From a virus, in IMG/VR virus record IMGVR_UViG_3300023202_000336, positions 32,001 through 96,000 of that record: a stretch of DNA of 64,000 nucleotides. The stretch is one strand, 5' to 3'. This document shows, piece by piece, positions 2 to 43,916 of the stretch. The position numbers and the translations under genes are program-made. Position 1 is the first letter of the stretch; each line of letters begins with the position of its first letter. The notes beneath the pieces were generated by a model. The model saw nothing but the letters and a program-made list of their open reading frames with translations, was not told where the DNA came from and did no database searches.

Positions 2-2221
2 TGGATCGTTTATGATTACGACGGTAACCTGCTTTGCATCGCATTAGATAATGAGGGCGAGGGTTGGAAGCTGACCGAGTGGGTTAATTTTGAGGGCCTC
101 TCGCAGAATAAGTTACGAGAGATGCTTGACATGGGGTTTATGACCATGTTGGAGGCAGCGAAAGGGCGCGACAGTTACACCTACATCATAGGTAATCACG
201 CCTTCGATTGGGCTGACGAGAACAGTTCCTACTTCAAGGAACTGTTAGGCGATAAGTTCGAAGGTAAGAACTCTGTTTCGATTGATATCGATTTGGACGA
301 GTTCAGATCTCAAGTGGAGAAGCTGGTTGCGCCGAAGGATGTTACTTTCAAGAAGGAGGCCGGTGAGGAGCGCGAACCAGAAGTCGATAATCATTCGTCA
401 GCGCCACAGCATAAGATGCGACCGAGAGCGGAACTTATCCTTTTCACGAAAGGCGGCGTCTATGCGATTGATAAGGGTGATTACCTCCTCTTTCCTGGTG
501 GTGGTGTCGACGACGGTGAAGAGCCTCGCGATGCGGCTATTCGGGAGACGATCGAGGAATCGAATCGTCACCCGATCAATGTCGACCAGTCCGGTATCGT
601 TGAAGCCGTCTGGCCTGAAGACAGTGGAAATGACTTTTGGGACGATTCGAAGTTCGATGGAGAACGGACGTACTTCTTTCTCGGCGTCGATTCCGGAGAA
701 GCTGGAGTTACGCATGACGACCAGGAGAAGTTCGAAGTCAAGTCGTTCGATACGATCATCGATCGATTGGGTGAGCTTATCGAAGACGAGAGCCAGCAGT
801 GGGCCCGGCGGAACAACGAGATTCGACGTGAACTCGTAACGCGAGCGAAAGAGAATGCGCAGCGAGACGAGGGGATGAAGCCGATGAAACGTGCGAGCAG
901 TTTCGAGGACTTCGTGGTCAAACGGGCTCAGCAGTATCTCGATAAGGGGATGTTGCCGCCTCCGTGGCTCTACGATGAAGTGAAAGAGGGTCAGGAGTAC
1001 GATATCACGCAGCAGGAAGAAGTGGTCGGTGACGCACAGGCCCCGGCGCAGCCGGCGCCACCTCCGATGCAGCAGATTCAGCAAGCGACTCCCGAAGCGA
1101 GATATCAGATTTCAGGAGCGCCAAAAGATTTCGACGAAGCGTTTGCTGATCAACTGCGTCAGCAGGTCACGCCGCAAGCACAGCCGGGGGCGCAGGTCCA
1201 GCCACGAGCCCAGACAGCTCCTGGAGGCGGTGTCGGTGCGCCTTACAAGGCTGCACAGGCGATCACGCATTCAGGAGCGTTTCGTCAGAGTACCCCCGAG
1301 CTTGTTACTTCCGGTGGTTCCGGTGATACGCTTCAGGACGAGCGGGAAGAGTATGGTGTTCCGGAATCGATGATGACGGAGCCCGGAGACGTCGGTAAGT
1401 CGACGAACGCACCTGCGATCGGGACGAATATCGTTCCGCCGCTCCAGAATGATCTCGAGAAAGAAGCGTCATTGAAGGAACGGATACGCCGGAAAGTAGC
1501 TGAAGCTGTTCCGTCGCCCCTTCGCTCGCTTACTGTTTTGATGCAGATAAAGGCTGCCGCTATGGCGCTCGAGGAAGAGTTGCGCGTCGGAACGAAGGAG
1601 GAGCTGGAGCATACGTCCGATCTGGATGAGGCAGAAGAGATCGCGCGTGAGCATCTCGAGGAAGACAAGAACTACTACGATAAGCTCGAAGACGCTGGTC
1701 TTTTGGACGCGACTCGTAACAAGGAGAAGAAAACCGCTGACGTTGTCCAGCTGATGCCGAGGCGTGAACAGATCCTTTTCACCCCTGAGGGAAAGCTGGT
1801 AGCACGTCCGACTGGTCGACGTCGGTTCGAGCTTCCGCAGGAAGGGCCGGGCCGCCCTGTTCCTTACGAGGAGCGTATCCCGTTCATCCCTCCGACTGGT
1901 ATCGAAGAACCCGGCTTCCATGGATATGATGTCGGCCTCCATATTGGCGAGGTTCCAGAAGTTCCCGAAGGGTTCGAAACAGTCGACCCTGAAGAGGCGC
2001 TGAAGCAGTTCTACGGAAGCATGGGTATCGCTGAGAATCGGCCGTATCGGCAGCTCGATCGTGCACGTGCACGCGCGATCCTTCGCTACCTGAAGCGCAA
2101 GAAGAAGGAGCGCGAAGAGGAGCGGCAGGAGCCGGTCACGGACGAGCCGATGAATCGTCCAGAATTTTCTACAACCGAGGGGACATTTAGTGAGGCGCCA
2201 GGGGCTGTTCGGGACTATTGA
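2..2221 (+). CDS. Multidomain protein: Nudix hydrolase, low-complexity linker, DUF5661-like domain (5-prime truncated by window edge)
   Basis: Frame is open from position 2 (WIVYDYDGNLL...) through the ATG at 122. Nudix box PGGGVDDGEEPRDAAIRETIEES at about 494-562. ELRVGTKEELEHTSDLDEAEEIAREHLEEDKNYYDKL matches the DUF5661 pattern from memory. Confidence 0.75.
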   Translation, partial: WIVYDYDGNLLCIALDNEGEGWKLTEWVNFEGLSQNKLREMLDMGFMTMLEAAKGRDSYTYIIGNHAFDWADENSSYFKELLGDKFEGKNSVSIDIDLDEFRSQVEKLVAPKDVTFKKEAGEEREPEVDNHSSAPQHKMRPRAELILFTKGGVYAIDKGDYLLFPGGGVDDGEEPRDAAIRETIEESNRHPINVDQSGIVEAVWPEDSGNDFWDDSKFDGERTYFFLGVDSGEAGVTHDDQEKFEVKSFDTIIDRLGELIEDESQQWARRNNEIRRELVTRAKENAQRDEGMKPMKRASSFEDFVVKRAQQYLDKGMLPPPWLYDEVKEGQEYDITQQEEVVGDAQAPAQPAPPPMQQIQQATPEARYQISGAPKDFDEAFADQLRQQVTPQAQPGAQVQPRAQTAPGGGVGAPYKAAQAITHSGAFRQSTPELVTSGGSGDTLQDEREEYGVPESMMTEPGDVGKSTNAPAIGTNIVPPLQNDLEKEASLKERIRRKVAEAVPSPLRSLTVLMQIKAAAMALEEELRVGTKEELEHTSDLDEAEEIAREHLEEDKNYYDKLEDAGLLDATRNKEKKTADVVQLMPRREQILFTPEGKLVARPTGRRRFELPQEGPGRPVPYEERIPFIPPTGIEEPGFHGYDVGLHIGEVPEVPEGFETVDPEEALKQFYGSMGIAENRPYRQLDRARARAILRYLKRKKKEREEERQEPVTDEPMNRPEFSTTEGTFSEAPGAVRDY

Positions 2222-2993
2222 GGTTCGTGATTCGGACGGATCACGTGAGTTGCTGATCAACGATCAGCGTCAAGGTGGGTCGTATCTTTTTCCGGATGCC
2301 TCTTCCGTCTCCGATCGCTCCGGTCCTGGCCCGGTTTCGAGTTCGCCGTATCACTATGGTTGGCTCATCGCAGGCGTTATGAATCCGACCGGAAGCGGAC
2401 TCATGACTGGCCTTGGAAGCGGCGCAGGTGCGGTTCAGTTGCTTGCGAACTTTTCAGGCGTTGATCTTACCGTCGTTGAGATCGATCCGAACGTGGTTCA
2501 ACTCGCGCTGAAGGCGTATCCGTTGATCGGCCATTACATTAATCTCGGCCAACTGAATATCGTGATCGACGACGCAGGTTCGTACCTTTCCCGTCGATAC
2601 GATAAATGGGATTTCGGCCTCGTTGATACCTACGATGGCGCTGATGCGCTCATTGATAAGTCGCTTCCGAAAGTCGCCGATCGCTGCGAACATCTCTACA
2701 TCAATGCGATCGATCGGTTCAACGGGCCTTCGATTTCGAAGATCACGGCGATAATGGCGGTACTCGAGAAGCCGATCGTCGAGGTTTTCAAGATCACGAC
2801 GCCAGAAGCAGTCGCTTTCTACGAGGATCGGTCGAACTGGATTCTCACGACAGAAGAGCCAGACTGGGTTAAACTCTCGAAATTCGAGCCGTTTCGGGAC
2901 ATTGATCACCAGAACGCCGATCGGGCCCGATTCATGTGGGACTACTTGCTCTCGAGCTCGATCTCGGAAGTTAACCCGCTCTTGCAAAATTGA
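2190..2993 (+). CDS. Spermidine-synthase-like class I SAM-dependent methyltransferase/aminopropyltransferase
   Basis: GLGSGAG glycine loop, VVEIDP, IVIDDA, GLVDTYDG motifs. GTG start overlaps the upstream gene end. Confidence 0.72.
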   Translation: MRRQGLFGTIEVRDSDGSRELLINDQRQGGSYLFPDASSVSDRSGPGPVSSSPYHYGWLIAGVMNPTGSGLMTGLGSGAGAVQLLANFSGVDLTVVEIDPNVVQLALKAYPLIGHYINLGQLNIVIDDAGSYLSRRYDKWDFGLVDTYDGADALIDKSLPKVADRCEHLYINAIDRFNGPSISKITAIMAVLEKPIVEVFKITTPEAVAFYEDRSNWILTTEEPDWVKLSKFEPFRDIDHQNADRARFMWDYLLSSSISEVNPLLQN

Positions 2994-12170: not shown

Positions 12171-13010
12171 ATGCAGAAAGCGGCTGCCCACGAGTGGGCA
12201 ACAGACCCGGGGTACATCCCTGTATTTGCTCTCGGCGGTGCGGCGCTCGGAGGCGGGGCTCGTTTACTGAAGAACCTCTTCGACCTTGGAAGACGTGGCC
12301 CGACGAAGTCTCCAGTGGAGATAGCGCGCCCTCTTGCGGCGCTCTCTGAGGTTCCGGTCGAGGTCTCTAAAGAGGAGGCCGAGGAGTTGCGTAAGCGCGG
12401 CGTCAAGGTTCGGAGGATGCTTTCGAAAGAAGGCGCTCATAAGAAGGAAGGTATTTCACGACTGCTGGGGTCCGCTGGACTTCTCGGTCTTGGAACCCTT
12501 TCGACCGTCGGCGGGTGGCATCTCGCCGATACGCTTATCGATGCTGCTCGGAAGCGGGCGGCGAAGAAAGATGTCGAAGACGTGAAGAAGCGGATACGCC
12601 GTATCCTCGAGGAATCGCCGTCTAATCGTGATGACGAGAAGCTCTTCGGTTACATGAAGGCGGCCGAAGACAAGTACTTCAAGAAAGAAGCGATCCTGAA
12701 GGACATTCCGGTGATTCTTGGCGGGAGCCTCGGTATTAGCGGCGTTCTTGCGGGCCTGGCCGCTTACAATCGTTTGCAGCGGTCTGCTGAGGCGTCTCCT
12801 AAGTTGACCGCATTGAAGTCTATGCTTGCTCGGAGACTTCCGCAGCGTCCGAGTATGACGATGGTGCCTGTTCTGCGAGAAGGCGACGAAGAAGAAAAGG
12901 AGGACGAGGAGCGTATCCAGCCGCGCTTCGTTCCTGTTGAGCGGGTGAGGACGCCCGGGAGCCCAGCAGTACAGGCGGCGAGAAACCGTAGCACCTCCAA
13001 TTGGATTTAG
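12171..13010 (+). CDS. Glycine-zipper hypothetical protein with three hydrophobic helices
   Basis: FALGGAALGGGA, LLGSAGLLGLGTLSTVGG, ILGGSLGISGVLAGLAAY, each preceded by a K-x-A/G motif; no Cys. Confidence 0.75.
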   Translation: MQKAAAHEWATDPGYIPVFALGGAALGGGARLLKNLFDLGRRGPTKSPVEIARPLAALSEVPVEVSKEEAEELRKRGVKVRRMLSKEGAHKKEGISRLLGSAGLLGLGTLSTVGGWHLADTLIDAARKRAAKKDVEDVKKRIRRILEESPSNRDDEKLFGYMKAAEDKYFKKEAILKDIPVILGGSLGISGVLAGLAAYNRLQRSAEASPKLTALKSMLARRLPQRPSMTMVPVLREGDEEEKEDEERIQPRFVPVERVRTPGSPAVQAARNRSTSNWI

Positions 13011-26026: not shown

Positions 26027-26248
26027 ATGCGCAAGGAAAACGCAGCTCAGATACTCAGGCGGATCTTTGAGAAGAACGCTGAAGGGGAAGGAGGCCCTCC
26101 GTTGAGGACCGACTCCGGGTATGATTACGGGACCGTCTCTTCGGCTGTCCAGAAGGAATCACCGCAGCAGGGCGAGCGCGGGTTGATGAACAGCTCGAAA
26201 ACTGCTTCGATCCTTTCGAAGACTTTTCATAAGCTCGCAAATCGATAA
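26027..26248 (+). CDS. Small K-x-A-motif protein
   Basis: 73 aa, AGGA RBS; KNAE, KTAS, KLAN. Confidence 0.6.
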   Translation: MRKENAAQILRRIFEKNAEGEGGPPLRTDSGYDYGTVSSAVQKESPQQGERGLMNSSKTASILSKTFHKLANR

Positions 26249-26473: not shown

Positions 26474-27265
26474 ATGCTGATAGCGCCGAGCCGCCCTGAC
26501 TGGCGTTGGGCGCGAGTTGCCGAGCTTTCTCAGTATTCGGATACGCGAGCCCTCGCTCGTCTTTCGAAAGACGATCAGCAGACGCAACGTGCGTTTCGCT
26601 TCAAGCGTGCTTTCGACCGTGGTGCCGGTGACGAGTATCCAGAACTACTCGCAGCGCACGATGTTTTCGTCGAAGACCAGGACCGCCGCGGGATTCTCGA
26701 AGGGTTTCTGCTGACAGGGGCTTCGAACGAGGAGATTAGCGAGCATAACTGGGTCGACCCGAAAGTTGTTCAGGACTATCACGATATCTTCTTTGATGTC
26801 CGAGAAGGCCTGAAACACCCGGGATGGATCTGCTCAGCGGTCTTCAACGGGATGCCGCATAAAGGTGCGCACGCCGGTGATAAGATCGGGATGGCACATC
26901 GTTTCGCTTGGTTCGGCGGATTCGACCTCTTCAAGCGGATGGTGGTACAGGGGCTTGCCCCCGCTGAGACTCACGAGGTGCTTAGGAGCATCACTCGGGA
27001 CGTGCTCATGAAGAACTCGGTCGAATCGGCGCTGAGCTATGGGAGTCGCGGCGATATCGCTCACGAGTACATGCGGATGGCCTTTAACAAGGATAACTTC
27101 GAAGACGATGACGCGAAATCGATGGATACCGATTACGAGAAGGCAGTCGACGCGTTCTTTACAGGGATCGGTATCTCCGTTGCGGATGCAACTGATTCGC
27201 GTAATTTGGAAGCACCGAAACAAGAGCCCCGCGAGGCCGATTACGAGGTAGTCAAAGATGGCTGA
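26474..27265 (+). CDS. Hypothetical protein with HTH-like segment
   Basis: Start moved to ATG 26474. ILEGFLLTGASNEEISEHNWVDPKVVQDYHDIFFDV looks helix-turn-helix-like. Confidence 0.65.
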   Translation: MLIAPSRPDWRWARVAELSQYSDTRALARLSKDDQQTQRAFRFKRAFDRGAGDEYPELLAAHDVFVEDQDRRGILEGFLLTGASNEEISEHNWVDPKVVQDYHDIFFDVREGLKHPGWICSAVFNGMPHKGAHAGDKIGMAHRFAWFGGFDLFKRMVVQGLAPAETHEVLRSITRDVLMKNSVESALSYGSRGDIAHEYMRMAFNKDNFEDDDAKSMDTDYEKAVDAFFTGIGISVADATDSRNLEAPKQEPREADYEVVKDG

Positions 27266-28634
27266 TAATCTTATGAGCGACCAGCGGCATACTGAACTGA
27301 TGAAGGCAGCTGAAGCCTGCATCGGTCTGATGAACGTTGGTGTTCGCCCGAATCCGGCGCTTGCGAAGATCGCTGACGATCATCATATGAACGAGAAGGA
27401 AGTCTCGTTGGTCAGTCATGCGGTGAATAACTCGAAGCAGCTGGCGCACCTTCAGACGACTTCTCCCGAGAAGAGAGAAGAGGAGTTTCCGATTACCGAC
27501 GCCGAAGAGGTGAAGGTGATTCGGACGCAGCCTTTGACGAATGCTGAGGACGACCCAGGTGATCGGTACGGGCCTCAGGACGAGAAGGGTGAGACGACTA
27601 AACAGAAGTATCATGAGAATGATGCGCTCGATATCAAGGAGGAGCTGGATAAGGAAGCTGCCGCCTCTTATAGCGAGAACTCGGACTTCCGCCTTCAGCC
27701 GTCCCAGCCTGATGCCGTTTCGACGCTGAGATCAGCTTGGGGCCTCGAGAAGGGGGTTCCGAAGCTCGCTGAGTACGAGGATCCCAACCCGTTTGCGAAG
27801 CTCGACTACTATCGGATTGGTGTGGAAGAGGCGCGACTCAAGTACGCCGCTGCACGTGATCAGGCCATTTCAGCGATTAATTCGCTTTCGGAGAGCTTTC
27901 GTCGAGTCGATGCGCCGCGTTTCGCTGAGTTCGAGAAAGCGGCGGCTGCAACCGGCGTGTCCCGGCGGACGCTCGATTTCATCTACGAAGCCGGTCGTCT
28001 CGAGAAGTTCGGGGAAGAGCGTGCCGATTTGACCCAGAAGCTGGCGTCGCCGCTCTATATTACTTCGAAGACGAATGAGTATGTTCAGAAGAGTGTATGC
28101 GCGGACAATTTTCTCAAAGAAGCGATCGACGCGTCAGCGGCGCTAAGTGTAATCAAGAAGAGGGCTGAAGCTGCTTCTCCGAAGATCGCTGGAGATACTC
28201 CGACCGGAGTTCCTGGTGACATCTTCAAGATCGACCTCGACCCGCAGCCTGCGGAAGAGGCTCTCTCGAGAGCTCCGTCTGAGTTTCTCGGTCTCGGAGA
28301 GGACCCGGTTGAGGGGATCCGTGGTATCGCTGGGATAGGTGAAGCTGAAAAAGATAAGAAAGAGCCTCGTCTTTCGCAGGAAGCGACGCAGGAGATGGCA
28401 AACTTCGAGGCTCGTGCCGTGCTCGAAGAGTTGATGGAAGACCCAGTGGTCGGCGGGTATAGCATGCCGGAAGTGGTTGAAGCCTATAACGCCGCGATGT
28501 CGGTGAATCCGAACTTTGGAAAGGCGGCGTTGACGAGCTACATGCGTCAGCATCTGGCCACCGAAGGCGCGGTTCCGCTCGATCTCCAGCTGAGAGCTTC
28601 TCCGCGCACGCCTGCTGGGGTGGGAGGAGACTAA
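27258..28634 (+). CDS. Hypothetical helical head-region protein
   Basis: 458-aa ORF, coupled to neighbours; KAAE, KEAAAS, KLAS motifs. Confidence 0.75.
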   Translation: MADNLMSDQRHTELMKAAEACIGLMNVGVRPNPALAKIADDHHMNEKEVSLVSHAVNNSKQLAHLQTTSPEKREEEFPITDAEEVKVIRTQPLTNAEDDPGDRYGPQDEKGETTKQKYHENDALDIKEELDKEAAASYSENSDFRLQPSQPDAVSTLRSAWGLEKGVPKLAEYEDPNPFAKLDYYRIGVEEARLKYAAARDQAISAINSLSESFRRVDAPRFAEFEKAAAATGVSRRTLDFIYEAGRLEKFGEERADLTQKLASPLYITSKTNEYVQKSVCADNFLKEAIDASAALSVIKKRAEAASPKIAGDTPTGVPGDIFKIDLDPQPAEEALSRAPSEFLGLGEDPVEGIRGIAGIGEAEKDKKEPRLSQEATQEMANFEARAVLEELMEDPVVGGYSMPEVVEAYNAAMSVNPNFGKAALTSYMRQHLATEGAVPLDLQLRASPRTPAGVGGD

Positions 28635-28635: not shown

Positions 28636-29619
28636 ATGCCTTTCGCAGAGGTCGCTGCCGACGTTCTGACTGATCCTCAGAAGCAGATGAAAGTTGCCGC
28701 GGAGGTGGGTGACGAGGAGGCGCAGTCTGCTGAGGAGCGTGCGAAGAGTCGTCGTCTCAAGGCGATTCTTTATACGTTGGCGGGGATCGGTACCGTAGGG
28801 CTTGGTTCTTACTTTCTTCTCAAACACCCCGATAAGGTCGCTGAAGGGGTGAGAAAGGTTTTTGGTGGAGAGGAAGAGCCAGAGCAGACCGCTGCAGAAC
28901 GTTTGAAAGGAGCGGTTACCTCTCCGAGTATAGCGGGCGGTCTTGCTTACCTCGGTGCCGGAACTCGAACTGGCGCTTCGTATCTTCCGAGGACGCTTCA
29001 GAAGTTTCCGTTCTTTACGGGTGACCGTGCGCTTTCGCTCGAAAATCTTCGAAAGCATATTGCCGCGGTCTCAACACCTGAAGGTCAGACAGCAGCCGCG
29101 CAGGCGAAGACCCCTGATCAGAGGCTCGGGGCTCTTATGACGGATCTTCCAGAGCTGGAGCAGCGCAGAAAGTTGCATAAAGAGCTGGGAAGGGCTCGAG
29201 GCAGAGAGGGGTCGATATTGAATCTCATCGCTGCTGATCCGAAACTTAAGCGCATAGATGAGATCTTGCAACTTCCTCGTGCGCAACAGCAGGCGCTGAT
29301 AAAGAAATTGAAGGCCCCGGCAAGGACCATTCCCGGTCTTTCCGGCCTCCAAGACGTACGGTTCATGAAGAACCTTGAGCGCGGCTTAGGAGAACTCGCA
29401 GCACAGGAAGGAAGGAAAACTCCTGGAGCAGGAGAGCGCGCGAGAGCTGTTAGGCGCTTTCTTGGAGCGGATCCTGAGACGCTTCACGGTGCGCTGAGGT
29501 CGTACCGGAAGGCACGTGCTCCGAGAAGTTTCTGGGGAGGCGTCGGGCGAGCTGCTGTTGTTCCGACGGCAACTATGGTCCCCGGTGCGCTTGAGACTTA
29601 TGAGGCATGGACTGACTAA
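28636..29619 (+). CDS. Hypothetical basic protein with hydrophobic helices
   Basis: ILYTLAGIGTVGLGSYFLL and IAGGLAYLGAG, downstream of QMKVAAEV; TAATG coupling to the protease; no Cys. Confidence 0.72.
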   Translation: MPFAEVAADVLTDPQKQMKVAAEVGDEEAQSAEERAKSRRLKAILYTLAGIGTVGLGSYFLLKHPDKVAEGVRKVFGGEEEPEQTAAERLKGAVTSPSIAGGLAYLGAGTRTGASYLPRTLQKFPFFTGDRALSLENLRKHIAAVSTPEGQTAAAQAKTPDQRLGALMTDLPELEQRRKLHKELGRARGREGSILNLIAADPKLKRIDEILQLPRAQQQALIKKLKAPARTIPGLSGLQDVRFMKNLERGLGELAAQEGRKTPGAGERARAVRRFLGADPETLHGALRSYRKARAPRSFWGGVGRAAVVPTATMVPGALETYEAWTD

Positions 29620-31523
29620 TGATTACGAAACTGATCCTTCCGCAGTCGTTTAGTTTCGATGGTCCAGCCGCGTCGTTGGTGCCACTTCATCGCGTCGGAG
29701 GGGCTGATTCGCAATGGTTGCGGAAGCATGCGAGTCATGGAGTCTTTCATGACCTCCTTCGAGACCTGAAGCCGATTCCTGGTAAGTCCGTTATTCATGT
29801 ACTCGCGGTCGGTGACGAGGAGCTGTGGGGCCCGAACCGAAACGGCGACGGGTTCAGTCGTGAAGATAATGTGACCGCGCATCGGACGTTCAAAGACATC
29901 GGTCACGTCTTCAGGCACCACCAGAATGATGATCCGTTCAAGGCCGTCGGTGATATCATCGCTACGGCGCATAACGAGAATATGTCTCGGATCGAGTTAC
30001 TTCTCGGGCTCGATAATACGAAGTGTCGCCGTGAGATCGAAAAGGTCGATAACGACGAAGATCTCCCTGTGAGCATGGGTTGCTTTACGGCCGGTCACTT
30101 TCTGACGCTCGAAGACGGGTCGGTTATTAGGTTAGAGGACGCAGTCGAAGGTCAGCAGGTATTGACGCATTTAGGTAATCGGCTACCTATTACACACGTT
30201 TTTAATCAGGACCCGTATACCGGCACGTTGTATACTCTGAAGGCCCGAACGGTTGAGGACGTTGAGGCTACGGCCGAGCACCCGTTTTTTGTAGTGCGTC
30301 AGGAGCATATTGTTCACACGGGCCGTAAAACACGCCGCGTGGATCCGTCTAAACTTAATCAACTTGATGTTACGTTAGACGCTGACTGGGTTGCTGCGAA
30401 GGATCTTCGGGTAGGCGACTACTTGGTTACTCCCGTGAACCTTGAAGAAGAGCTTCCGGATTACATTCCCCGTACCGACACCCCTGTTCTCGCAAGGCAC
30501 ACGACCAAGGCCTGTCGAGACTTGGAGACTACTCACCGCGGCGGAAGTAGGTTGCGTGTAGATGATTTCATTCTTACACCTATCCGTGATATCTTGTCGC
30601 GAGACGTTGTAGACGAGCCCGTTTACAATATTGAGGTACAGAGTGATAACTCGTACGTGATTAATGGCATCGCGGTTCATAATTCTCTTCAGGATTTCGA
30701 TGTTTGTTCTCATTGTGGTCATAAGGCGCCAACGGCTTCGGATCATTGCGAACATATCAAGAAGATGCTCGGACAGGTCTTGGAGGACGGTACCAAGATC
30801 TACATGAAGAACCCGAAGCCGAAGTACTTCGATCTCAGCCTCGTTTTCAAGCCGGCTGATCGGATCGCGTACACGCTTCGGAAGGTTGCTGCCGCTGGTG
30901 GCGAAGTCATCGGGGGCCACGAACTGGCTGACATGGTTGGTCTCGTCGATTGGACGCATCCGAAGATGGCTGCGAAGCGGACGCTGGCGGCGATGTATAA
31001 AGAGATCCCGATGACGATCCGTCAGGTGACACGTCCGAAGGACGTCCATCCGAATGTCGCTGCGGAGCTCAAAAAGCAGGCGAATCTCCACGGAATCGAC
31101 CAGTTGCTCGGATTCCTGCATTCGAACGGGTGGCTCCTGAGCCCACGTGACTTCGCCGAGGTGATCGGGCACCCCGAGCCTGAGAAGTGCGAAATGGCGG
31201 TTGCGAAGCACGATGGTATGGACGATTTCCTCGACGATCACAGCGAAGTCAAATCGTTGGAAGTCCCTGTCATACAAGACCCTATGACTTTGAGCGGGCG
31301 AGCTCTCGAGGAGCTTGAGGGCGCCTGTTCGATGCATCCTGACAAGGTCCAGAAGCGGGTGATTTCGATTACCGTGACCGGACCTTCAGAGAAGACTGCT
31401 CAGATCGAGGATACGGCTGAAGCGAAGGGGTTGGCAGCGCTGTACAACCACTATAAAGTAGCATTCGCTATGCAGTTCCAGTCTCGGAACGATATCCTTC
31501 GCAACGTCGCAGCTACGTTCTGA
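29619..31523 (+). CDS. Prohead (capsid maturation) serine protease with mini-intein
   Basis: NRNGDGF, FRHHQN, VSMG|S, DVCSHCG..CEH, FDLSLVFKPAD..A pattern typical of phage prohead proteases; directly upstream of scaffold and capsid genes. Confidence 0.8.
   Translation: MITKLILPQSFSFDGPAASLVPLHRVGGADSQWLRKHASHGVFHDLLRDLKPIPGKSVIHVLAVGDEELWGPNRNGDGFSREDNVTAHRTFKDIGHVFRHHQNDDPFKAVGDIIATAHNENMSRIELLLGLDNTKCRREIEKVDNDEDLPVSMGCFTAGHFLTLEDGSVIRLEDAVEGQQVLTHLGNRLPITHVFNQDPYTGTLYTLKARTVEDVEATAEHPFFVVRQEHIVHTGRKTRRVDPSKLNQLDVTLDADWVAAKDLRVGDYLVTPVNLEEELPDYIPRTDTPVLARHTTKACRDLETTHRGGSRLRVDDFILTPIRDILSRDVVDEPVYNIEVQSDNSYVINGIAVHNSLQDFDVCSHCGHKAPTASDHCEHIKKMLGQVLEDGTKIYMKNPKPKYFDLSLVFKPADRIAYTLRKVAAAGGEVIGGHELADMVGLVDWTHPKMAAKRTLAAMYKEIPMTIRQVTRPKDVHPNVAAELKKQANLHGIDQLLGFLHSNGWLLSPRDFAEVIGHPEPEKCEMAVAKHDGMDDFLDDHSEVKSLEVPVIQDPMTLSGRALEELEGACSMHPDKVQKRVISITVTGPSEKTAQIEDTAEAKGLAALYNHYKVAFAMQFQSRNDILRNVAATF
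30081..30683 (+). mobile_element. Mini-intein (201 aa, no recognisable endonuclease) in prohead protease
   Basis: Starts CFTAGHFLT; block B ATAEHPFF; ends YNIEVQSDNSYVINGIAVHN, followed by Ser(+1). Confidence 0.92.
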
Positions 31524-31560: not shown

Positions 31561-33042
31561 ATGACTAAGAGTCGAAACCTGCTGGACGAGCTGGATGGCC
31601 TCATCAAGCGTGCAGGCGCGAAGAAGGCCGAGGAGCTCGAGAAGGCGGAACAGGAAGAGCAGGCTGGAAACGGCGAGGAAAAGACCGCCGGCGAGACCAG
31701 CCGTAAGATGGACAACGAGGACGACAACACCACCGCTGCGACGACCGGGGAACAGGCCGCCGCGAACAAGCGTGACAACCGCGATCACTACTCGGCTGGA
31801 AGTACCGATAAGGGTGCTGAGACGAATCCGAGTGGCGAAGCGGTTGACATGAGTTCGGACATGGCCGACGCCGTCGATTCTGACGGGCAAGAAGGCCCCG
31901 AGCCCGGTCACGTCGCCGAGGGTGGTGTCGGTTCCGAAGGGCCTCAGGGCCCCGGCGAGGAGACCGACGTCCCGAATAAGGCCGGTTGGGATAGCGGCGC
32001 GTTTGCTGGTGTGAAGAAGCGCGCCAGCGAGCTCTCCGAAGAACTTCGTAAGATTGCCCGCGGCTATAAGCACAAGGGCAAGGATGGTGATTACGAAGGT
32101 GATTACGAGGAGGGCAGCAAGGGAAAAAAGCATAATCCCGGCTACCACAAGAAGGGTTCTTCCGAGCTCAATCCGCTTCAGGAATTCCTGGTAAAATCCG
32201 CGCGCGTCAGTGAAGACCCTCAGGTCAAGGCCGCTGCTGACGCTGTCGAAGACGATGCGGCCTTGGCTGGCGCTGCGAGTGACGCCATCATGCAGGGGAT
32301 CGAGGCTGGCGAGATCGGTGACGAGGAAGCCGCTCAGATTCTCGAGGAGGCGGTCCAGGCTGGTGCCGTTTCTGAGGAAGAGCTCGCGGAGGCAGCTGAG
32401 ATGGTTCAGGCTGCGACTGCTGAAGGGGGCGGCGAAATGGCCGGAGCGGGAGAAGCCGATCTTGGTGGTGCCGAGATGGCTGGCGGTGAGATGGCTGGCG
32501 GCGCGATGGATTACGAAGCGCTTCCCGAGGAAAAGCTGGCGTTCGCCGAAGTCGGCCCTGAGAGCGAGCACTACGTCAAGAAGCTCGCCTCGCTTTATCC
32601 TGACGAGATGAATGCGGGGTATGCGTTCGGCCTCAAGCTGGCGCAGGAGCTGTCCGAGCTCGCCGAAAAGGAAACTGGTGACGAGGGCGACTACGAAGAG
32701 AAGGAGGAGAGGGAAGAGAAGGGCGACTACGAAGAAGGTAACGGTGAGGATGAGAACGGCGGAGAAGAGGCCCCTCCGGCTGACGCTGTTCCGCCCCCTG
32801 CCGAGGCCGCCCCTCCTGCTGCTCCTGAAGAGGTTGCTCCGATAGGTGCCGAGGACTATGCTCCTCAGTCTCCCGAAGAGGAGCAGGCTCTCCAGGCCGT
32901 CCAGGAGGAGCTGGGGCTCGATGATGCCGCGCTCGCGCAGATCATGGCCGCCCCGGTCCCCGGTGAACTCGACAAGGTCGCTTCTGCGAAGTCGAAGTAC
33001 CGGTCTCTCATCTTGAATAAGGTTGCAGCTAGCTGGCAGTAA
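31561..33042 (+). CDS. Scaffolding-like acidic protein
   Basis: Very Glu/Ala/Gly-rich, 493 aa, between protease and capsid genes; many K-x-A motifs. Confidence 0.65.
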   Translation: MTKSRNLLDELDGLIKRAGAKKAEELEKAEQEEQAGNGEEKTAGETSRKMDNEDDNTTAATTGEQAAANKRDNRDHYSAGSTDKGAETNPSGEAVDMSSDMADAVDSDGQEGPEPGHVAEGGVGSEGPQGPGEETDVPNKAGWDSGAFAGVKKRASELSEELRKIARGYKHKGKDGDYEGDYEEGSKGKKHNPGYHKKGSSELNPLQEFLVKSARVSEDPQVKAAADAVEDDAALAGAASDAIMQGIEAGEIGDEEAAQILEEAVQAGAVSEEELAEAAEMVQAATAEGGGEMAGAGEADLGGAEMAGGEMAGGAMDYEALPEEKLAFAEVGPESEHYVKKLASLYPDEMNAGYAFGLKLAQELSELAEKETGDEGDYEEKEEREEKGDYEEGNGEDENGGEEAPPADAVPPPAEAAPPAAPEEVAPIGAEDYAPQSPEEEQALQAVQEELGLDDAALAQIMAAPVPGELDKVASAKSKYRSLILNKVAASWQ

Positions 33043-33072: not shown

Positions 33073-33513
33073 ATGCCTAACGAAGATATCATCAAGGAAG
33101 CGGCGGACCTGCTCGACCAGCTGGTCAAGCATGCCGAAGCCGCTGACAAGCACGCGGAGGAGGCAGAGTCCGAGGCCAAGCAGGCGAAGGAAGCTGCCGC
33201 CAACGCGTCGAAGGAGCATCAGAAGACTGCTGCTGCGGAGGAGGCCGAGATCGGCCAGCTCGCGAAGCAGGCGTCTGATGCCCTCATGAACGCGGGCCTG
33301 CTGGGGTCGCAGGAGAAGGCTGACGAGTTCGCCAGCCTGATCCGCGACCCGAAGGTTGCGCTCGCGAAAATGGCCCAGTTGACGCAGTACGTCAAAGCAC
33401 CGAAACTGGGAAGCGTGGTGGTTGAGGATAACAGCTCGGCTCCCGCAGAGCCCACCGCCGACGAGCGTTGGGACATGCACATGAAGCAGGCGGCTGCTCG
33501 GCTCGGTCTGTGA
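33073..33513 (+). CDS. Small coiled-coil head protein (scaffold-like)
   Basis: 146 aa, Ala/Glu/Lys-rich; KEAA, KHAE, KTAA, KQAS, KQAA. Confidence 0.7.
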   Translation: MPNEDIIKEAADLLDQLVKHAEAADKHAEEAESEAKQAKEAAANASKEHQKTAAAEEAEIGQLAKQASDALMNAGLLGSQEKADEFASLIRDPKVALAKMAQLTQYVKAPKLGSVVVEDNSSAPAEPTADERWDMHMKQAAARLGL

Positions 33514-34272: not shown

Positions 34273-35211
34273 ATGACTCAAGAGAAGCTTAGCGCGGCTC
34301 AGTCGAATAAGATCTTCTTCGGTCTGCTCGATAGTGGGCAGGTGAAAGAGGCACAGGATATGGTCTCGGACTTTACCCGAGTTCGTATCCGGGAGAGTTC
34401 CTTCTTCGAGAAGATTCTCCCCTCGGTCAAGATCGCTGACGACGAGCTGACGCCCCAGCTGGATAACGACAAGAATGTGAAGCTGGTGGAGCGCGAACCC
34501 GCGTCTCCGGCGGCCGTCACTATTCCGCTCGGTACCCAGCCGGTTCAGTACTACTTCCGCGGCGATCGGTTCCCGGTCTTTTTCGACCGGATCGTGACGA
34601 CCAAGTTCACCAAGGATATCTCCGAACTCCGTACCTACGGGATGGATATCCGACAGGTGATCTCGGATAACGCGGTCCTCGATATGGACTTCGAGTTCGA
34701 CCGCAAGATGATCGCTGCTGCGCAGTCGATCGTCGGCGCGGAAGGCTCGACCGTCCCCGAGACCGGGGTCATCCAGAACCGGAAGATCGTCGATCCGCTC
34801 GGCATCACCCGTAACTCGCTCTTCGAACTGCGGAAGATCCTCCCTGAGACTTTCGCTCACCTCGAGAGTGTGACGATTCTCGTGAATAACATCACTATTC
34901 ACGACGTTGCGAAGTTCGGGCGAGACGACCAGGGCGGCGACCTCTCGGAGACGATGTTCGTCGAGGGGTTCCAGCAGAAGCAGCTGCTGGGCGCCAACTG
35001 GATTGTGACAAACAAGACAGAGCTGATCGAGAACAGCACCTTCTGGTTGTTTGCCTCGCCCGAGTTTATCGGGAAGAGCTTTATCCTGGAGGACGTGACG
35101 CTCTTCCTTGATAAGAGGGCATTCAATCTGGAGTTCTTCGCTTACACTGAGCGTGGTGCTACCATCGGTAACGCTGCTGCGGTCGCGAAGGCTCGGATCG
35201 CTACTAGCTAA
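34273..35211 (+). CDS. Major capsid protein (HK97-fold, putative)
   Basis: 312 aa, strongly biased codon use, last gene of the protease-scaffold-cement block, followed by a terminator. Confidence 0.75.
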   Translation: MTQEKLSAAQSNKIFFGLLDSGQVKEAQDMVSDFTRVRIRESSFFEKILPSVKIADDELTPQLDNDKNVKLVEREPASPAAVTIPLGTQPVQYYFRGDRFPVFFDRIVTTKFTKDISELRTYGMDIRQVISDNAVLDMDFEFDRKMIAAAQSIVGAEGSTVPETGVIQNRKIVDPLGITRNSLFELRKILPETFAHLESVTILVNNITIHDVAKFGRDDQGGDLSETMFVEGFQQKQLLGANWIVTNKTELIENSTFWLFASPEFIGKSFILEDVTLFLDKRAFNLEFFAYTERGATIGNAAAVAKARIATS

Positions 35212-36457: not shown

Positions 36458-36458
36458 A

Positions 36459-40311: not shown

Positions 40312-40833
40312 ATGGCTCAGACGCCTCTCGGACATTTCCAGCGGACCCAGAACGGGCGCTTCTTGTACGGCCGCTGCAACAACTACCGCCTCAAGTCGGC
40401 GTTGGCCTCAATGCCGAACCCGAATCTCGACCTCGGGAGCACCGATCTCGATTCTGGTGCTTCTCCGCTTACGGTGAGCCACGACGTGGCTGCCGGCGTC
40501 GGTCAGACTTCGATCGTTGCTGATCAGCGTGAGAACTGGCCTTCGAGCGGCTCCGTGAATGGGGCTGGCACGTCCCAGGTCCTGACCCAGGGTGGGATCG
40601 CTGCACGGACCGAAGGCTTCCCGCGGGTGGATAACAACGGCGTTTCGTCGATCTCTGAGACCCAGGACTGGATCTACGATGATGGCGATCCGGCCGATAC
40701 CGGGGTCGGGTTCGGCTCGAACACCTCTCATGACTACACTTCCGCTGGGACCTTCCGGCCAGACCTGTCCTGCAAGGACGGCCTCGGGCGTGAGTCGCTT
40801 CAGGAAGAGGTCGAAGAGATCGTCGTTACCTGA
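40312..40833 (+). CDS. Structural protein with C-terminal PKD/Ig-like domain
   Basis: Start ATG 40312 after an AGGAG RBS. WIYDDGD..SHDYTSAGTFRPDL..KDGLG resembles the PKD consensus. Confidence 0.6.
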   Translation: MAQTPLGHFQRTQNGRFLYGRCNNYRLKSALASMPNPNLDLGSTDLDSGASPLTVSHDVAAGVGQTSIVADQRENWPSSGSVNGAGTSQVLTQGGIAARTEGFPRVDNNGVSSISETQDWIYDDGDPADTGVGFGSNTSHDYTSAGTFRPDLSCKDGLGRESLQEEVEEIVVT

Positions 40834-41923: not shown

Positions 41924-42951
41924 CTGCTCCGTCGATTCTTTCTGCACAGCATCAAGACACGACGCTCTACATAATTTTTGATAGAGCAATCTCGGTAACC
42001 GGTGGTTCCGAGCTTGATGGGTTTACGTTCACGCTCGATCCCGGCGGAGTTATCACCCCGTCTTTTAGCAGCGTCGACGACAACGCGCTGATCGCGACGC
42101 TTTCGTCCGCCGTTAATCCCGGCGAGACGTTGAACGTCGATTACGATAGTGGAACGGGAACTGTTGTCGAAGCGGTTGCCCCGAACGACCCTGCAGGTGA
42201 CTTCGACGTCGATGCAGTCGCTTACTTCGAGACACCAATTGTTCGGCGAGCAGAAACCGGAAGCGGTGCCGGGAACAATGACGACGTTACCATTTTCTTC
42301 GGAGAGCCGGTCGCATCGACTGACGGTGACCTTCTCGCCGGTATCACCATTAATGTAAACACCGCTTCAATCGATCTGAGTAGCGCAACCGCTTCGCTGA
42401 ACGCTGATCAGACCGAACTGACGATTTCGACTGGTACCAATTTCGTTTTCTCAGATACAGTCACTGTCGATTACGATGACTCGTCCGGGAACTTGAAGAC
42501 GTTCCCGACCGGATTCGTCGCAAGCTTTACCGGACTCGCAGTCACGAATCTTTCGACCGATGGGCTTCCGGATAGCCAGTACCCGAACAGCTTTGCCGTG
42601 AAGCAGCCGCTCGATGTGAAGGATAGCGTCGTTACCGGCGTGGTCGCGGTGAATCTCAACCCGGTTGATCTCGAGCTCGTCGATAAGTACGGGCCGATTT
42701 CCATCGTTACCGGCGGTGACTTTGGAACGTCGACAACTTGTACTATCGTTGGTGGTAATCAGAACATCATTGACGGTGTCGAAGTGAAAGAGTCTTTTAC
42801 GAAGGATGCATGCGGTTCGATCGTGAACGCAACCGACGCCGCTGCTGATTGGCAGGATAAGATTATCGACCGCATAAGTGTTGAGCTCGGCGCACTGAGG
42901 ACCATCGATCAGAACGTGACCAACGTGAACGAAACCGTAGTGAGTATCTAA
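41920..42951 (+). CDS. Ig-like (SwmB-type) repeat structural protein
   Basis: Two related units (LYIIFDRAI..VDYDSGTG and VTIFFGEPV..VDYDDSSG); Thr/Asp/Val-rich. Confidence 0.62.
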   Translation: MTAPSILSAQHQDTTLYIIFDRAISVTGGSELDGFTFTLDPGGVITPSFSSVDDNALIATLSSAVNPGETLNVDYDSGTGTVVEAVAPNDPAGDFDVDAVAYFETPIVRRAETGSGAGNNDDVTIFFGEPVASTDGDLLAGITINVNTASIDLSSATASLNADQTELTISTGTNFVFSDTVTVDYDDSSGNLKTFPTGFVASFTGLAVTNLSTDGLPDSQYPNSFAVKQPLDVKDSVVTGVVAVNLNPVDLELVDKYGPISIVTGGDFGTSTTCTIVGGNQNIIDGVEVKESFTKDACGSIVNATDAAADWQDKIIDRISVELGALRTIDQNVTNVNETVVSI

Positions 42952-43916
42952 TGACCGCACTTGATAACGCTCTTAAGAAAGTCGCTCAGCTCTATGAGGA
43001 TATGGATAACGTTGAGCGATGGTATCAGCGTCAGATGCGAACGTATCCGAACCGAAGAGCAGCATACGAGCAGCAACTTCAGAAGTATCTCGAGAGAAAG
43101 TCCAAGCGCGAGATGCGTCGCCAGCGAAATACCGCGAAGCAGGAGGCGCGTCGGAAGGCCGATAAAGAATGGCGTCAGCGAGTAACCAAGGGGCTGCGCG
43201 AAGCACAAAGTCGGCGGAAGACGCGAGAGGCTGACCCGGTTTACGCCGCGCAGCTGGCACGAAGTTATCAGGTTGCCGGGACCCCTCAGTCCAAGCGGCC
43301 CAGATGGCTCCATCATGCTGCCGCGACGCCTGCGTTCCAGCAGGCCTCGCAGGCGATTAGCGGTTTCAGGCGCGCAGGGGGTGGCGTGTATGCGCAGTCG
43401 GTGACTTCTCCGAGACACCGCCAGTTCCAGCGTCAATTAGGGAGGGTCGCCGAGCTTCCGGCGTATCAGGCCCGCGCCGCGCAGACTGCTGCGCAGTACA
43501 GGGCTCCGACTCCCGGGGCAGGGAGCGGATTCTTTTCGTCGGTCGGGGAAGGTCTCGGTAAAGCCTGGGAGGGCATTAAAGGAGTCGGGCAGACCATCGG
43601 AGGGCTTTTCGGTGGAGCCAAGACCGCTCAGTCGGCTGATCTGATGTCTCCGATGTTCGGAAGGTATCGGATGAACTTCAACCGCCCCTTCCGATTCAGA
43701 TCTCGGCGTCCGCTGATGACGTTCGGAAACGGTGGCCGTTTCGTTCCTGGGTCTGGCGAGCAGCGATTCGGGGGCCCGTTCGTCCCTGGATCAGGCGAGC
43801 AGCGCTTCGGTGGGAAGTTCAAGCCCGGATCAGGGGAAACATGGTTTAGTGGTCGTTTTAAGCCTGGATCCGGCGTGATGTTCGGGAAGGGTAAGCACCG
43901 TCCCAGGGGCCTTTAA
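42951..43916 (+). CDS. Highly basic protein with C-terminal 13-aa F/G-rich repeats
   Basis: Arg/Lys/Gln-rich; KVAQ and KTAQ motifs; coupled at both ends; no Cys. Confidence 0.72.
   Translation: MTALDNALKKVAQLYEDMDNVERWYQRQMRTYPNRRAAYEQQLQKYLERKSKREMRRQRNTAKQEARRKADKEWRQRVTKGLREAQSRRKTREADPVYAAQLARSYQVAGTPQSKRPRWLHHAAATPAFQQASQAISGFRRAGGGVYAQSVTSPRHRQFQRQLGRVAELPAYQARAAQTAAQYRAPTPGAGSGFFSSVGEGLGKAWEGIKGVGQTIGGLFGGAKTAQSADLMSPMFGRYRMNFNRPFRFRSRRPLMTFGNGGRFVPGSGEQRFGGPFVPGSGEQRFGGKFKPGSGETWFSGRFKPGSGVMFGKGKHRPRGL
43731..43883 (+). repeat. Four diverged 39-bp coding repeats (GGRFVPGSGEQRF-type)
   Basis: GGRFVPGSGEQRF / GGPFVPGSGEQRF / GGKFKPGSGETWF / SGRFKPGSGVMF. Confidence 0.85.

What the first reader, a model, noticed from the sequence alone, without database searches (positions are those of the whole stretch)
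2..43916. Recurring K-x-A(S/A/Q) motif at domain boundaries of head-region proteins: predicted maturation-protease code
Seen: the motif sits at N-termini and between domains in many head-region ORFs. Examples: Nudix protein (KKEAG, MKRAS, EKEAS, IKAAA, KKTAD), 12171 (MQKAAA, KKEAI), 18588 (LKTAAA, TKTAAV, VKNAQS), 23712 (LKLAS, RKQAA, DKVAG, NKTAA, KKVAAS), 26027, 26278, 27258 (DKEAAAS, QKLAS), 28636 (MKVAA), scaffold (EKTAG, KKRAS, KKLAS, DKVAS, NKVAAS), 33073 and 42951 (KKVAQ, AKTAQS). The protease itself has RKHAS before and RKVAAA right after its catalytic domain. The MCP begins MTQEKLSAAQ. Established: T4 gp21 and phiKZ gp175 process many inner-head proteins at short motifs ending in Glu. 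Phage prohead proteases are related to herpesvirus assemblin, which cuts after Ala (HCMV release site YVKA/S). Inference: this phage uses an Ala-P1, Lys-P3 specificity to convert many head genes into polyprotein-derived virion products.
Basis: partly seen in the sequence, partly recalled or inferred. Interest (0 to 1): 0.85.

Follow-up and report, generated by a model that had tools for sequence, protein, structure and literature searches.

The report
Lys-x-Ala head-protease cleavage code
The head-assembly proteins of this uncultured 180-kb phage and its relatives carry a conserved hydrophobic-x-Lys-x-Ala signal that most likely marks where the phage's T4/herpesvirus-type capsid protease cuts, a rule unlike the "cut after glutamate" rule of every studied relative, though no cut has been measured.

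Summary
In 26 unselected head-block ORFs, [LMFI]-x-K-x-A-[SAG] occurs 19 times against 3.0 expected (z≈9, local-composition shuffles). The reversed motif occurs 4 times, and the tail and endonuclease ORFs have none. K-x-A is the top pattern of 1,600 residue pairs tested. It ranks first or second of 400 in the block upstream of the MCP in 16 related phage loci (MCP identity down to ~26%, including cultured Salmonella phage Arash) and is unremarkable downstream.

Sites are positionally conserved. They flank the protease catalytic domain in 58-68 of 69 family members, in its only two internal low-confidence linkers. They are over-represented at N-termini and coincide with module joints of the Nudix polyprotein. 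The protease has the T4 gp21/herpesvirus assemblin fold, with invariant Ser and His, and carries a 201-aa intein beside the catalytic Ser.

The best reading is a prohead-protease processing code with Lys at P3 and Ala at P1. Cleavage itself is inferred. About half the K-x-A copies lie inside predicted helices, so not every copy need be cut. I found no published report of this rule, but this scan has already reported it on other genomes (e1-5688984, e1-5818503).

The parts
2..2221 (+). C-terminal 739 aa of a 1491-aa enzyme polyprotein that starts 2254 nt before the window. It contains Nudix and DUF5661-like modules, 14 K-x-A in the whole protein, and 8 in the 699-aa part within the window (from the ATG at 122).
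   Evidence: Pfam NUDIX E=1e-9. K.A[SAGQ] 10 against 2.46 expected. Homology-block and indel endpoints against relatives fall on K-x-A sites at residues 736-738, 870-872, 1048-1050, 1168-1170 and 1329-1331.
23712..26015 (+). 767-aa head protein of unknown fold and a candidate substrate. It has 8 K-x-A, 7 of them followed by S/A/G.
   Evidence: K.A[SAG] 7 against 0.5 (z 9.2). Sites at 138, 203, 521, 571 and 584 are kept at or within 2 residues in L002/L003.
26027..26248 (+). 73-aa ORF with 3 K-x-A.
   Evidence: 3 against 0.5 expected. No orthologue tested.
27258..28634 (+). 458-aa three-domain helical head protein and a candidate substrate, with 11 K-x-A.
   Evidence: 11 against 3.8. In 43 homologues K-x-A averages 10.3 per sequence against 2.6 for A-x-K. 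The site at 132 is kept in 40/43 and the site at 254-261 in 41/43. Sites 132, 261 and 309 lie in linkers or loops of the AF2 model.
28636..29619 (+). 327-aa protein with an N-terminal Q-M-K-V-A|A at residues 17-22, a candidate propeptide.
   Evidence: No BLAST-detectable orthologue in relatives, so conservation is untested.
29619..31523 (+). Prohead serine protease precursor (634 aa). The catalytic domain is interrupted by an intein and followed by a helical C-terminal domain.
   Evidence: Intein-free orthologue: phrog_18299 head maturation protease E=2.7e-11. AF2 pLDDT 88. Foldseek top matches are T4 gp21 5JBL (prob 1.00, TM 0.56), then the herpesvirus proteases. H100 and S151 are invariant.
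29724..29732 (+). Protease self-site 1: L-R-K36-H-A38|S, upstream of the catalytic domain.
   Evidence: In the family K is 68/69, A is 66/69, and P1' is S35/A24. It lies in the low-pLDDT segment 34-38.
30072..30074 (+). Predicted catalytic Ser152, in the P-V-S-M-G motif.
   Evidence: The column is invariant in 69 sequences. Position.
30081..30683 (+). 201-aa intein (Cys155 to Asn355, with Ser as the +1 residue), inserted two residues after the catalytic-Ser motif.
   Evidence: Pfam Intein_splicing E=7e-11. It is absent from the L002/L003 orthologues, whose sequence runs straight through. Coordinates.
30882..30890 (+). Protease self-site 2: L-R-K422-V-A424|A, directly after the catalytic domain (release-site position).
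   Evidence: In the family K is 58/69, A is 61/69, and P1' is S38/A14. It lies in the low-pLDDT segment 223-227 of the model.
31561..33042 (+). 493-aa acidic, Ala-rich scaffold-like protein with 13 K-x-A.
   Evidence: 13 against 5.7. Sites at 16, 341, 472 and 487 are kept in L002/L003. Sits between protease and MCP. No Pfam or PHROG hit.
33073..33513 (+). 146-aa helical scaffold-like protein with 10 K-x-A.
   Evidence: 10 against 3.2 (z 4.4). Sites at 51 and 65 are kept in both relatives.
34273..35211 (+). Complete major capsid protein (312 aa) with a conserved K25-E-A27 (nt 34345-34353), a predicted 27-residue N-terminal propeptide.
   Evidence: Covers 96% of the Arash MCP gp226. K25, E26 and A27 are invariant in alignment A1, and K-E-A is present in all 19 clade MCPs printed.
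12171..13010 (+). 279-aa protein that starts M-Q-K-A-A|A and has F-K-K-E-A|I at 170-175. A weaker candidate substrate.
   Evidence: Conservation not tested.
18588..19613 (+). 341-aa Pro/Gly-rich protein with three K-x-A in a C-terminal tail. A doubtful substrate.
   Evidence: Sites at 219, 229 and 240. The tail is not conserved in L002/L003.
42951..43916 (+). 321-aa protein with an N-terminal L-K-K-V-A|Q. An untested candidate.
   Evidence: Enrichment is not significant on its own (2 against 2.1).

Best explanation
The motif [L/M/F/I]-x-K-x-A followed by a small residue (S/A/G) is the recognition and cleavage code of the phage's own prohead serine protease (ORF 29619-31523), which has the T4 gp21/herpesvirus assemblin fold. 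After intein splicing rebuilds the active site, the protease is co-assembled into the procapsid. It frees its catalytic domain by cutting the two near-invariant sites that flank it. It then chops the scaffold-like proteins (31561, 33073) at many sites so they can leave. It trims N-terminal propeptides from the MCP (after Ala27) and from internal head proteins. It also separates the modules of the 1491-aa enzyme polyprotein, so these are delivered as individual proteins with the DNA. Shown here: the enrichment, directionality, clade-wide conservation and placement of the motif, the protease fold, and the conserved Ser/His. Inferred: that the motif is cut, that this protease cuts it, and that the scissile bond follows Ala.
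For: (1) Enrichment with local-composition control, and no enrichment of the reversed motif. K-x-A is top of 1,600 pair patterns. (2) It is restricted to head-block genes genome-wide. (3) In 16 clade loci K-x-A ranks 1 (14 loci) or 2 (2 loci) of 400 patterns upstream of the MCP and 79-263 downstream. Arash gp220, gp222, gp223 and gp225 are enriched, although their substrate proteins are no longer BLAST-detectable. (4) Positional conservation is 59-71% per relative against 12-38% for control tripeptides. In 43 homologues Lys within K-x-A is conserved at 0.55 against 0.23 for other Lys. (5) The extended profile at head sites only is P5 L/M (4x), P4 E, P2 Q/E and P1' S/A. (6) The self-sites flanking the catalytic domain are near-invariant in 69 family members and sit in the only internal low-pLDDT segments. 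This parallels gp21 and gp175 terminal processing (PMC9026906). (7) The fold matches T4 gp21 and the assemblins. (8) There is N-terminal over-representation. (9) Polyprotein modules are gained and lost at the sites. (10) The pattern correlates across branches. The Erwinia Alexandravirus protease lacks the self-site and its head block shows no K-x-A excess. Mycobacteriophage I3 keeps K-H-A at the N-terminus and is enriched in its protease-scaffold fusion.
Against: There is no proteomic or biochemical evidence of any cut. In the AF2 model of the 458-aa protein, 7 of 11 K-x-A copies lie inside confident helices. Two near-invariant copies (residues 16 and 37) have E/D at P1' within a folded domain, so part of the signal may be structural or a binding motif. 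P1' Glu is also mildly enriched. The Arash virion proteome reports 80-100% coverage for the scaffold-like gp223 and gp225, which is not what complete degradation predicts. However, that list of 116 'structural' proteins is clearly not stringent (PMC10585845). Clade loci share ancestry, so the 16 loci are not 16 independent trials.
Confidence: 0.68

Rival explanations
1. K-x-A is a non-proteolytic short linear motif. It would be a docking or capsid-targeting signal that recruits proteins to the scaffold, protease or shell interior without being cut. Alternatively it could be a pseudo-substrate that binds the protease groove.
For: Near-invariant copies sit inside confidently folded helices with non-small P1' (residues 16 and 37 of the 458-aa protein). 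The restriction to head-block genes and the N-terminal bias would also fit a targeting tag, like the T4 CTS (PMC9026906).
Against: The best-conserved copies flank the protease catalytic domain in flexible linkers. Scaffold-like proteins carry 10-13 copies each. Polyprotein modules are jointed at the sites. The small-residue preference at P1' is a protease signature. In T4 the targeting tag and the cleavage site are the same element, so this rival overlaps the main reading.
Confidence: 0.14
2. The motif is a cleavage code, but a different protease (host or second phage enzyme) reads it, not ORF 29619.
For: Most head-block ORFs have no recognisable family, so an unrecognised protease cannot be excluded. 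Another report of this scan attributed a second tag to a neighbouring zinc protease (e1-5645143).
Against: No second protease was found by Pfam or PHROGs in the block. The motif's strongest conservation is within the prohead protease itself across a very large family. Presence of the self-site tracks presence of enrichment in the three branches compared.
Confidence: 0.08
3. It is a compositional or structural by-product of Lys/Ala/Glu-rich helices, with no specific function.
For: The scaffold-like proteins are Ala-, Glu- and Lys-rich and helical. ORF 37537 shows how a KKTA repeat inflates K-x-A counts.
Against: Shuffles confined to 10-40-residue windows leave z at 7-10. The reversed motif is not enriched. 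There is position-specific conservation, a P5/P1' signature absent from tail K-x-A sites, and persistence across GC 0.44-0.64.
Confidence: 0.04

Closest known systems
T4 prohead protease gp21 with its L/I-x-E code and capsid-targeting sequences, and the phiKZ gp175 (S/A-x-E) and SPN3US gp245 (A-x-E) systems (PMC9026906, PMC10052503)
   Same: Same protease fold. A short motif with determinants at alternate positions ending at P1. Many substrates, comprising scaffold/core proteins cut many times, N-terminal propeptides on internal head proteins and the MCP, and self-processing at the protease termini. As in phiKZ-like phages, there is a virion-associated multi-subunit RNA polymerase in the head block.
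   Different: P1 is predicted to be Ala and P3 Lys, with a hydrophobic P5, instead of Glu at P1. No x-x-E pattern is enriched here. The protease is not matched by Pfam. It carries a Cys/His cluster after the catalytic Ser, a long helical C-terminal domain and, in this phage, an intein.
Herpesvirus assemblin (UL26/UL80 family) maturation and release sites, cleaved Ala|Ser
   Same: Related fold. Predicted Ala at P1 and Ser/Ala at P1'. There is a site directly after the catalytic domain that would release it from a C-terminal extension, as the herpes R site does (herpes site rules are from established knowledge, not tested here).
   Different: Herpes sites have V/L at P3 (M site) or Tyr at P4 with Lys/Gln at P2 (R site), whereas here Lys is at P3 and Leu/Met at P5. 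Herpes proteases have very few substrates, while this system has dozens of sites in roughly ten proteins. Sequence identity is about 10-13%.
Cargo or polyvalent polyproteins of phages, and the earlier reports of this scan on K-x-A-jointed polyproteins (e1-5792038, e1-5771228)
   Same: A long chain of unrelated enzyme modules (phosphoesterase/ligase ... Nudix ...) joined by the motif that fills the scaffold and protease. Modules are gained and lost at the joints between relatives.
   Different: Packaging and ejection of the modules are not shown. Only the C-terminal half lies in this window.

Membership tests
gp21/assemblin-fold prohead serine proteases (herpesvirus-protease-like fold; T4 gp21, HK97 gp4, phiKZ gp175, herpes assemblin) | The characteristic protease fold | tested here: met
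   AF2 model of the intein-free orthologue has pLDDT 88. Foldseek top PDB hits are 5JBL T4 gp21 (prob 1.00, TM 0.56, rmsd 3.8 over ~170 columns), then the pseudorabies, HCMV, KSHV, EBV and HSV proteases. E-values are weak (0.04-0.5), but every protease-domain hit is of this fold. BFVD hits include annotated prohead proteases.
gp21/assemblin-fold prohead serine proteases | Conserved catalytic Ser and His | tested here: met
   S151 and H100 are invariant and H87 is at least 90% conserved in 69 sequences down to ~28% identity. Their catalytic role is inferred. I made no residue-level superposition on gp21.
gp21/assemblin-fold prohead serine proteases | Gene position in the head module next to scaffold and MCP | tested here: met
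   The order is protease, scaffold-like 493-aa, 146-aa, 221-aa, then MCP. The order is the same in Arash, gp222 to gp226.
gp21/assemblin-fold prohead serine proteases | Sequence-profile membership (Pfam Peptidase_S77/S78/S80/U35 or similar) | tested here: not met
   No Pfam protease family at E up to 5. The only matches are PHROG phrog_18299 'head maturation protease' at E=2.7e-11 and the unannotated phrog_2774. It is therefore an uncurated branch with 3,132 representatives at E<0.001.
gp21/assemblin-fold prohead serine proteases | Proteolytic activity and autoprocessing | not testable with these tools
   Needs biochemistry or virion proteomics.
T4/phiKZ-type processing code (short motif ending in Glu at P1) | Enriched and conserved [L/I/S/A/G]-x-E motif in head proteins | tested here: not met
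   In the unbiased scan of all residue pairs at gaps 0-3, K-x-A is top (z 7.2) and no x-x-E pattern is among the leaders. E.A[SAGQ] is conserved at only 22-31%.
Herpesvirus assemblin site rule ((V/L)-x-A|S) | Ala at P1 with Ser at P1' | tested here: inconclusive
   The site profile has Ala fixed, then S (2.8x) or A (1.8x). The scissile bond itself is not determined.
Herpesvirus assemblin site rule ((V/L)-x-A|S) | Hydrophobic V/L at P3 | tested here: not met
   P3 is Lys (K in 68/69 and 58/69 at the self-sites). The hydrophobic determinant is at P5.
Inteins (Hint domain, class 1) | Cys1, terminal His-Asn, nucleophilic +1 residue, absence from orthologues | tested here: met
   Pfam Intein_splicing E=7e-11. 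Cys155...His-Asn355|Ser356. L002/L003 orthologues lack the 201 aa and read straight through.

The most novel reading that the evidence does not exclude
A very large, uncurated branch of the gp21/assemblin-fold capsid proteases (over 3,000 representative clusters, found in ~170-190-kb phages with virion RNA polymerases) has abandoned the Glu-P1 rule of all studied phage relatives. It has adopted a herpesvirus-like Ala|Ser bond read through Lys-P3 and Leu/Met-P5. It uses this as a portable 'cut here' joint that lets unrelated enzymes be strung into capsid-delivered polyproteins and swapped between phages.
Probability: 0.5. Interest if true: 0.7.

Novelty: new variant of a known kind. Interest (0 to 1): 0.6.

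Why it matters
Prohead-protease codes are known experimentally for only a handful of phages, and in the T4/phiKZ lineage they all end in Glu. A second code that can be read directly from sequence would let the mature ends of dozens of orphan head and ejected proteins be predicted across a widespread, almost unstudied group of large phages. That group includes the cultured Salmonella phage Arash, where the prediction could be tested at once. It would also define the boundaries of injected enzyme modules, such as the Nudix, ligase and phosphoesterase units. It offers a natural example of specificity switching within one protease fold, towards the Ala|Ser bond used by herpesvirus assemblins. Finally, it would give a design rule for loading and releasing cargo in such capsids.

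Tried and rejected
1. DNA megablast of 20 kb of the window against annotated phages found no match.
2. tblastn of the 767-aa protein found only a marginal Arash hit.
3. Pfam on the protease, with or without the intein, found no protease family.
4. I hoped the Arash proteome paper would show processing. It mentions no protease or cleavage, and its 116-protein list with near-complete coverage is uninformative.
5. The phage G paper has no cleavage-site data.
6. Literature searches for 'K-X-A'+protease+capsid, prohead protease+assemblin+specificity, and Bixzunavirus+protease+cleavage returned nothing. Cheng et al. 2004 is not held.
7. I considered that the MCP was split by the endonuclease insert. 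I rejected this because the 312-aa ORF covers 96% of the Arash MCP.
8. I considered helical or compositional bias. I rejected it on local shuffles and the reversed-motif control.
9. In some searches I used ORF 10094-11145 out of frame. This was corrected to 10096 and the result did not change.
10. My greedy genome-wide gene caller picked some antisense ORFs, such as 31531-33534 on the minus strand. I replaced these by hand.
11. I did not attempt a residue-level active-site or S1-pocket comparison with gp21.

Full report
WHAT THE WINDOW IS. The window is bases 32001-96000 of a complete 180,134-bp IMG/VR virus record with direct terminal repeats. All long ORFs lie on the + strand. The region 2-43916 is the head module. 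It holds, in order:
- the C-terminal half of a 1491-aa enzyme polyprotein with a Nudix domain;
- a 956-aa ORF at the portal position, with a weak intein match (not confirmed here by any portal-family hit);
- a beta/beta'-type RNA polymerase in two genes;
- a run of proteins with no known family;
- the protease (29619-31523);
- two scaffold-like proteins;
- a 312-aa MCP (34273-35211).

There is no close annotated relative. The nearest described phages are the 'orphan' Salmonella phage Arash and Vibrio phages D69/D181/D148, with MCPs about 28% identical. The MCP ORF covers 96% of the Arash MCP, so it is complete. The endonuclease/GT41 block after it is an insertion next to the MCP gene, not within it.

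- K.A: 106 against 67.5 expected (z 5.0).
- K.A[SAG]: 44 against 16.7 (z 7.3).
- [LMFI].K.A: 41 against 12.3 (z 8.7).
- [LMFI].K.A[SAG]: 19 against 3.0 (z 9.2).

The reversed motifs gave 79, 20, 18 and 4, so they are not enriched. The 21 tail ORFs and the 5 ORFs of the endonuclease insert have no copy of the full motif. Shuffle windows of 10, 40 or the whole protein give the same answer. To exclude cherry-picking, I scored all 400 residue pairs at gaps 0-3. K-x-A was the strongest of 1,600 patterns (72 against 32.5, z 7.2), the next best reached z 4.6, and the tail set showed nothing comparable. Genome-wide, the excess is confined to the head block plus one minus-strand ORF just past the window end.

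CONSERVATION. Two relatives with about 55% identical head proteins (L002, L003) keep K-x-A at the aligned position in 59-71% of cases per relative. Control tripeptides in the same proteins (K..A, E.A, K.G, K.E, A.A, K.[LVI] and others) are kept in 12-38%. Several sites persist inside otherwise unalignable linkers. For the 458-aa protein I collected 42 further homologues (32-48% identity). Each has 7-13 K-x-A (mean 10.3) but only 2.6 A-x-K. Lys within K-x-A is conserved at 0.55, against 0.23 for other Lys. The sites near residues 132 and 254-261 are present in 40 and 41 of 43 sequences.

I then took 16 clade loci retrieved with an MCP profile, with MCP identity 26-87% and GC 0.44-0.64. In the unselected 10 kb upstream of the MCP, K-x-A ranks first (14 loci) or second (2 loci) of 400 patterns, with z from 4.3 to 7.8. 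Downstream it ranks 79-263. In the Arash-like subclade the substrate proteins are no longer detectable by BLAST, yet Arash gp220, gp222, gp223 and gp225 are enriched. The motif therefore outlives recognisable homology. These loci share ancestry and are not independent trials.

A SHARPER MOTIF. L-x-K and M-x-K were co-enriched. A profile of 635 upstream K-x-A sites shows P5 as L/M/F/I in 59% of sites (L and M about 4x enriched). P4 favours E (2.9x), P2 favours Q/E, P1' favours S (2.8x) and A (1.8x), and P2' favours E/V/D. The 99 K-x-A sites of downstream (tail) genes show none of this.

THE PROTEASE. ORF 29619-31523 carries a 201-aa intein (Cys155 to Asn355, with Ser at +1; nt 30081-30683). The intein is absent from the relatives, whose proteases are 428-432 aa. 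Pfam recognises no protease family. The intein-free orthologue matches PHROG 18299 'head maturation protease' at E=2.7e-11. An exhaustive search found 3,132 representative clusters at E<0.001, and many are about 800 aa and match in two stretches, consistent with frequent inteins.

In an alignment of 69 intein-free members (down to ~28% identity), H100 and S151 are invariant. S151 lies in P-V-S-M, two residues before the intein insertion point. Three Cys after it are also invariant. The AlphaFold2 model (pLDDT 88) finds T4 gp21 (5JBL; probability 1.00, TM 0.56) and then the herpesvirus proteases as its best solved matches. Its best viral models are phage G gp19, Gordonia Pupper, phiRSL1, PaBG and annotated prohead proteases. 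Foldseek E-values are modest (0.04 and above), so the assignment rests on the fold, the PHROG match, the conserved Ser/His and the gene position taken together.

THE KEY LINK. At site 1, K is present in 68/69 and A in 66/69, with P1' S35/A24 and P5 L/M/F/I. At site 2, K is 58/69 and A 61/69, with P1' S38/A14 and P5 L in 49. These two sites are the only internal segments of the model with pLDDT below 50, at residues 34-38 and 223-227. Flexible, conserved, substrate-like sequences on both flanks of a capsid protease domain match what is described for gp21 and gp175 terminal processing (PMC9026906). They also match the position of the herpes release site.

PLACEMENT IN SUBSTRATES. Thirteen of 28 head-block proteins have K-x-A in their first 40 residues, against 5.5 expected (0 of 1000 shuffles). 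For tail proteins the figure is 3 of 21 against 2.0. All clade MCPs printed carry K-E-A near residue 27.

In the polyprotein, homology blocks and indels relative to three related genomes begin or end at the sites. One block runs from 870 to 1052 (sites at 870-872 and 1048-1050). One relative lacks residues 1173-1328, a gap bounded by the sites at 1168-1170 and 1329-1331. Other blocks end at 740 and start at 1327. By my count, about 6 of 11 internal endpoints lie within 4 residues of a site, where about 8.5% is expected per endpoint. This count is a rough hand estimate.

The AF2 model of the 458-aa protein (pLDDT 78) gives a mixed picture. Sites 132, 261 and 309, which have small P1', lie in a linker, a loop or a helix end, and site 169 (P1' Glu) also lies in a loop. 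Sites 16, 37, 195, 227, 287, 301 and 422 lie in confident helices. So 'between domains' is only partly true, and not every copy need be a cut site.

HOW FAR THE CODE REACHES. Distant members of the protease family occur in Mycobacterium cluster C phages and in Erwinia Alexandravirus. Mycobacteriophage I3 keeps K-H-A before its catalytic domain. It shows K-x-A excess only within its own 1408-aa protease-scaffold fusion (18 against 8.2), together with some R-x-A excess. The Erwinia phage's protease lacks the self-site, and its head block has no K-x-A excess, with D-x-E as the top pattern. That is three data points only, but self-site and enrichment go together.

COMPARISON WITH THE KNOWN. T4 gp21 cuts after L/I-x-E, phiKZ gp175 after S/A-x-E and SPN3US gp245 after A-x-E with Ser at P1'. 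In those phages scaffold proteins are cut many times, internal proteins lose N-terminal targeting propeptides, and the protease processes itself (PMC9026906, PMC10052503). The present system has the same logic and the same fold, but a different predicted code. That code shares Ala|Ser with herpesvirus assemblin sites (established knowledge) but not the hydrophobic P3. I found no paper reporting a Lys-x-Ala rule. The search covers only open-access literature.

PRIOR SCAN REPORTS. Other follow-ups in this scan reached the same reading on different genomes of this clade (e1-5688984, e1-5818503, e1-5792038). I saw these only after my own tests, and they are not independent evidence.

VERDICT. Cleavage and the exact bond remain to be shown. 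This is a new variant of a known kind of system.

Noticed in passing
window 30081-30683: The protease intein (201 aa) sits two residues after the invariant catalytic-Ser motif P-V-S-M-G. Many family members of ~800 aa match the intein-free query in two stretches split at the same place, so this looks like a recurrent intein insertion hotspot in capsid proteases.
   Followed up: partly
window 3833-6703: The 956-aa ORF at the portal position has a weak Intein_splicing match (E=1.7e-6, residues 132-440, below the Pfam cutoff). It also has no K-x-A at all (0 against 2.5 expected).
   Followed up: no
genome 96617-97570, minus strand (617-1570 nt beyond the window end): A 317-aa ORF outside the head block, with coding-like GC3, carries 8 hydrophobic-x-K-x-A sites against 0.9 expected. 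It is the only strongly enriched gene outside the head block, and a candidate extra capsid cargo or scaffold protein encoded elsewhere.
   Followed up: partly
window 2-2221 and genome 29746-34221; L032-L037: The 1491-aa enzyme polyprotein is rearranged among relatives. The Nudix module, the DUF5661-like module and the C-terminal module occur in open frames of 520 to 1009 aa, or in separate ORFs, with breakpoints at K-x-A sites.
   Followed up: partly
window 35438-40833: A ~5-kb lower-GC stretch (0.49-0.50 against ~0.56) follows the complete MCP gene. It holds two endonuclease-like ORFs, a Lys-rich KKTA-repeat protein (37537-38289) and a 637-aa TPR/GT41-like ORF (the GT41-like label comes from another first-reader note, not tested here). 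It looks like an insertion absent from the MCP-proximal region of relatives. The KKTA repeat inflates K-x-A symmetrically and is not part of the code.
   Followed up: no
window 18588-19613: The C-terminal tail contains an internal duplication (the SSADIWR...GMKPGQRVTAP segment occurs twice) and T-T-Q-T-P repeats.
   Followed up: partly
L002:17020-18318 (alignment A2), equivalent to window 30684-30800: The protease family has three invariant Cys (C161, C164, C175 in L002 numbering) plus nearby His immediately after the catalytic Ser. This is a probable zinc-binding insert. I did not check whether T4 gp21 or the herpesvirus proteases have an equivalent.
   Followed up: no
L030 (Mycobacterium phage I3, NC_067270.1 45365-49591): The cluster C mycobacteriophage homologue is a 1408-aa protease fused to a long low-complexity/scaffold-like region, annotated only as 'hypothetical protein'. 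PHROG 2774 (profile length 1263, unknown function) is probably this fusion.
   Followed up: no
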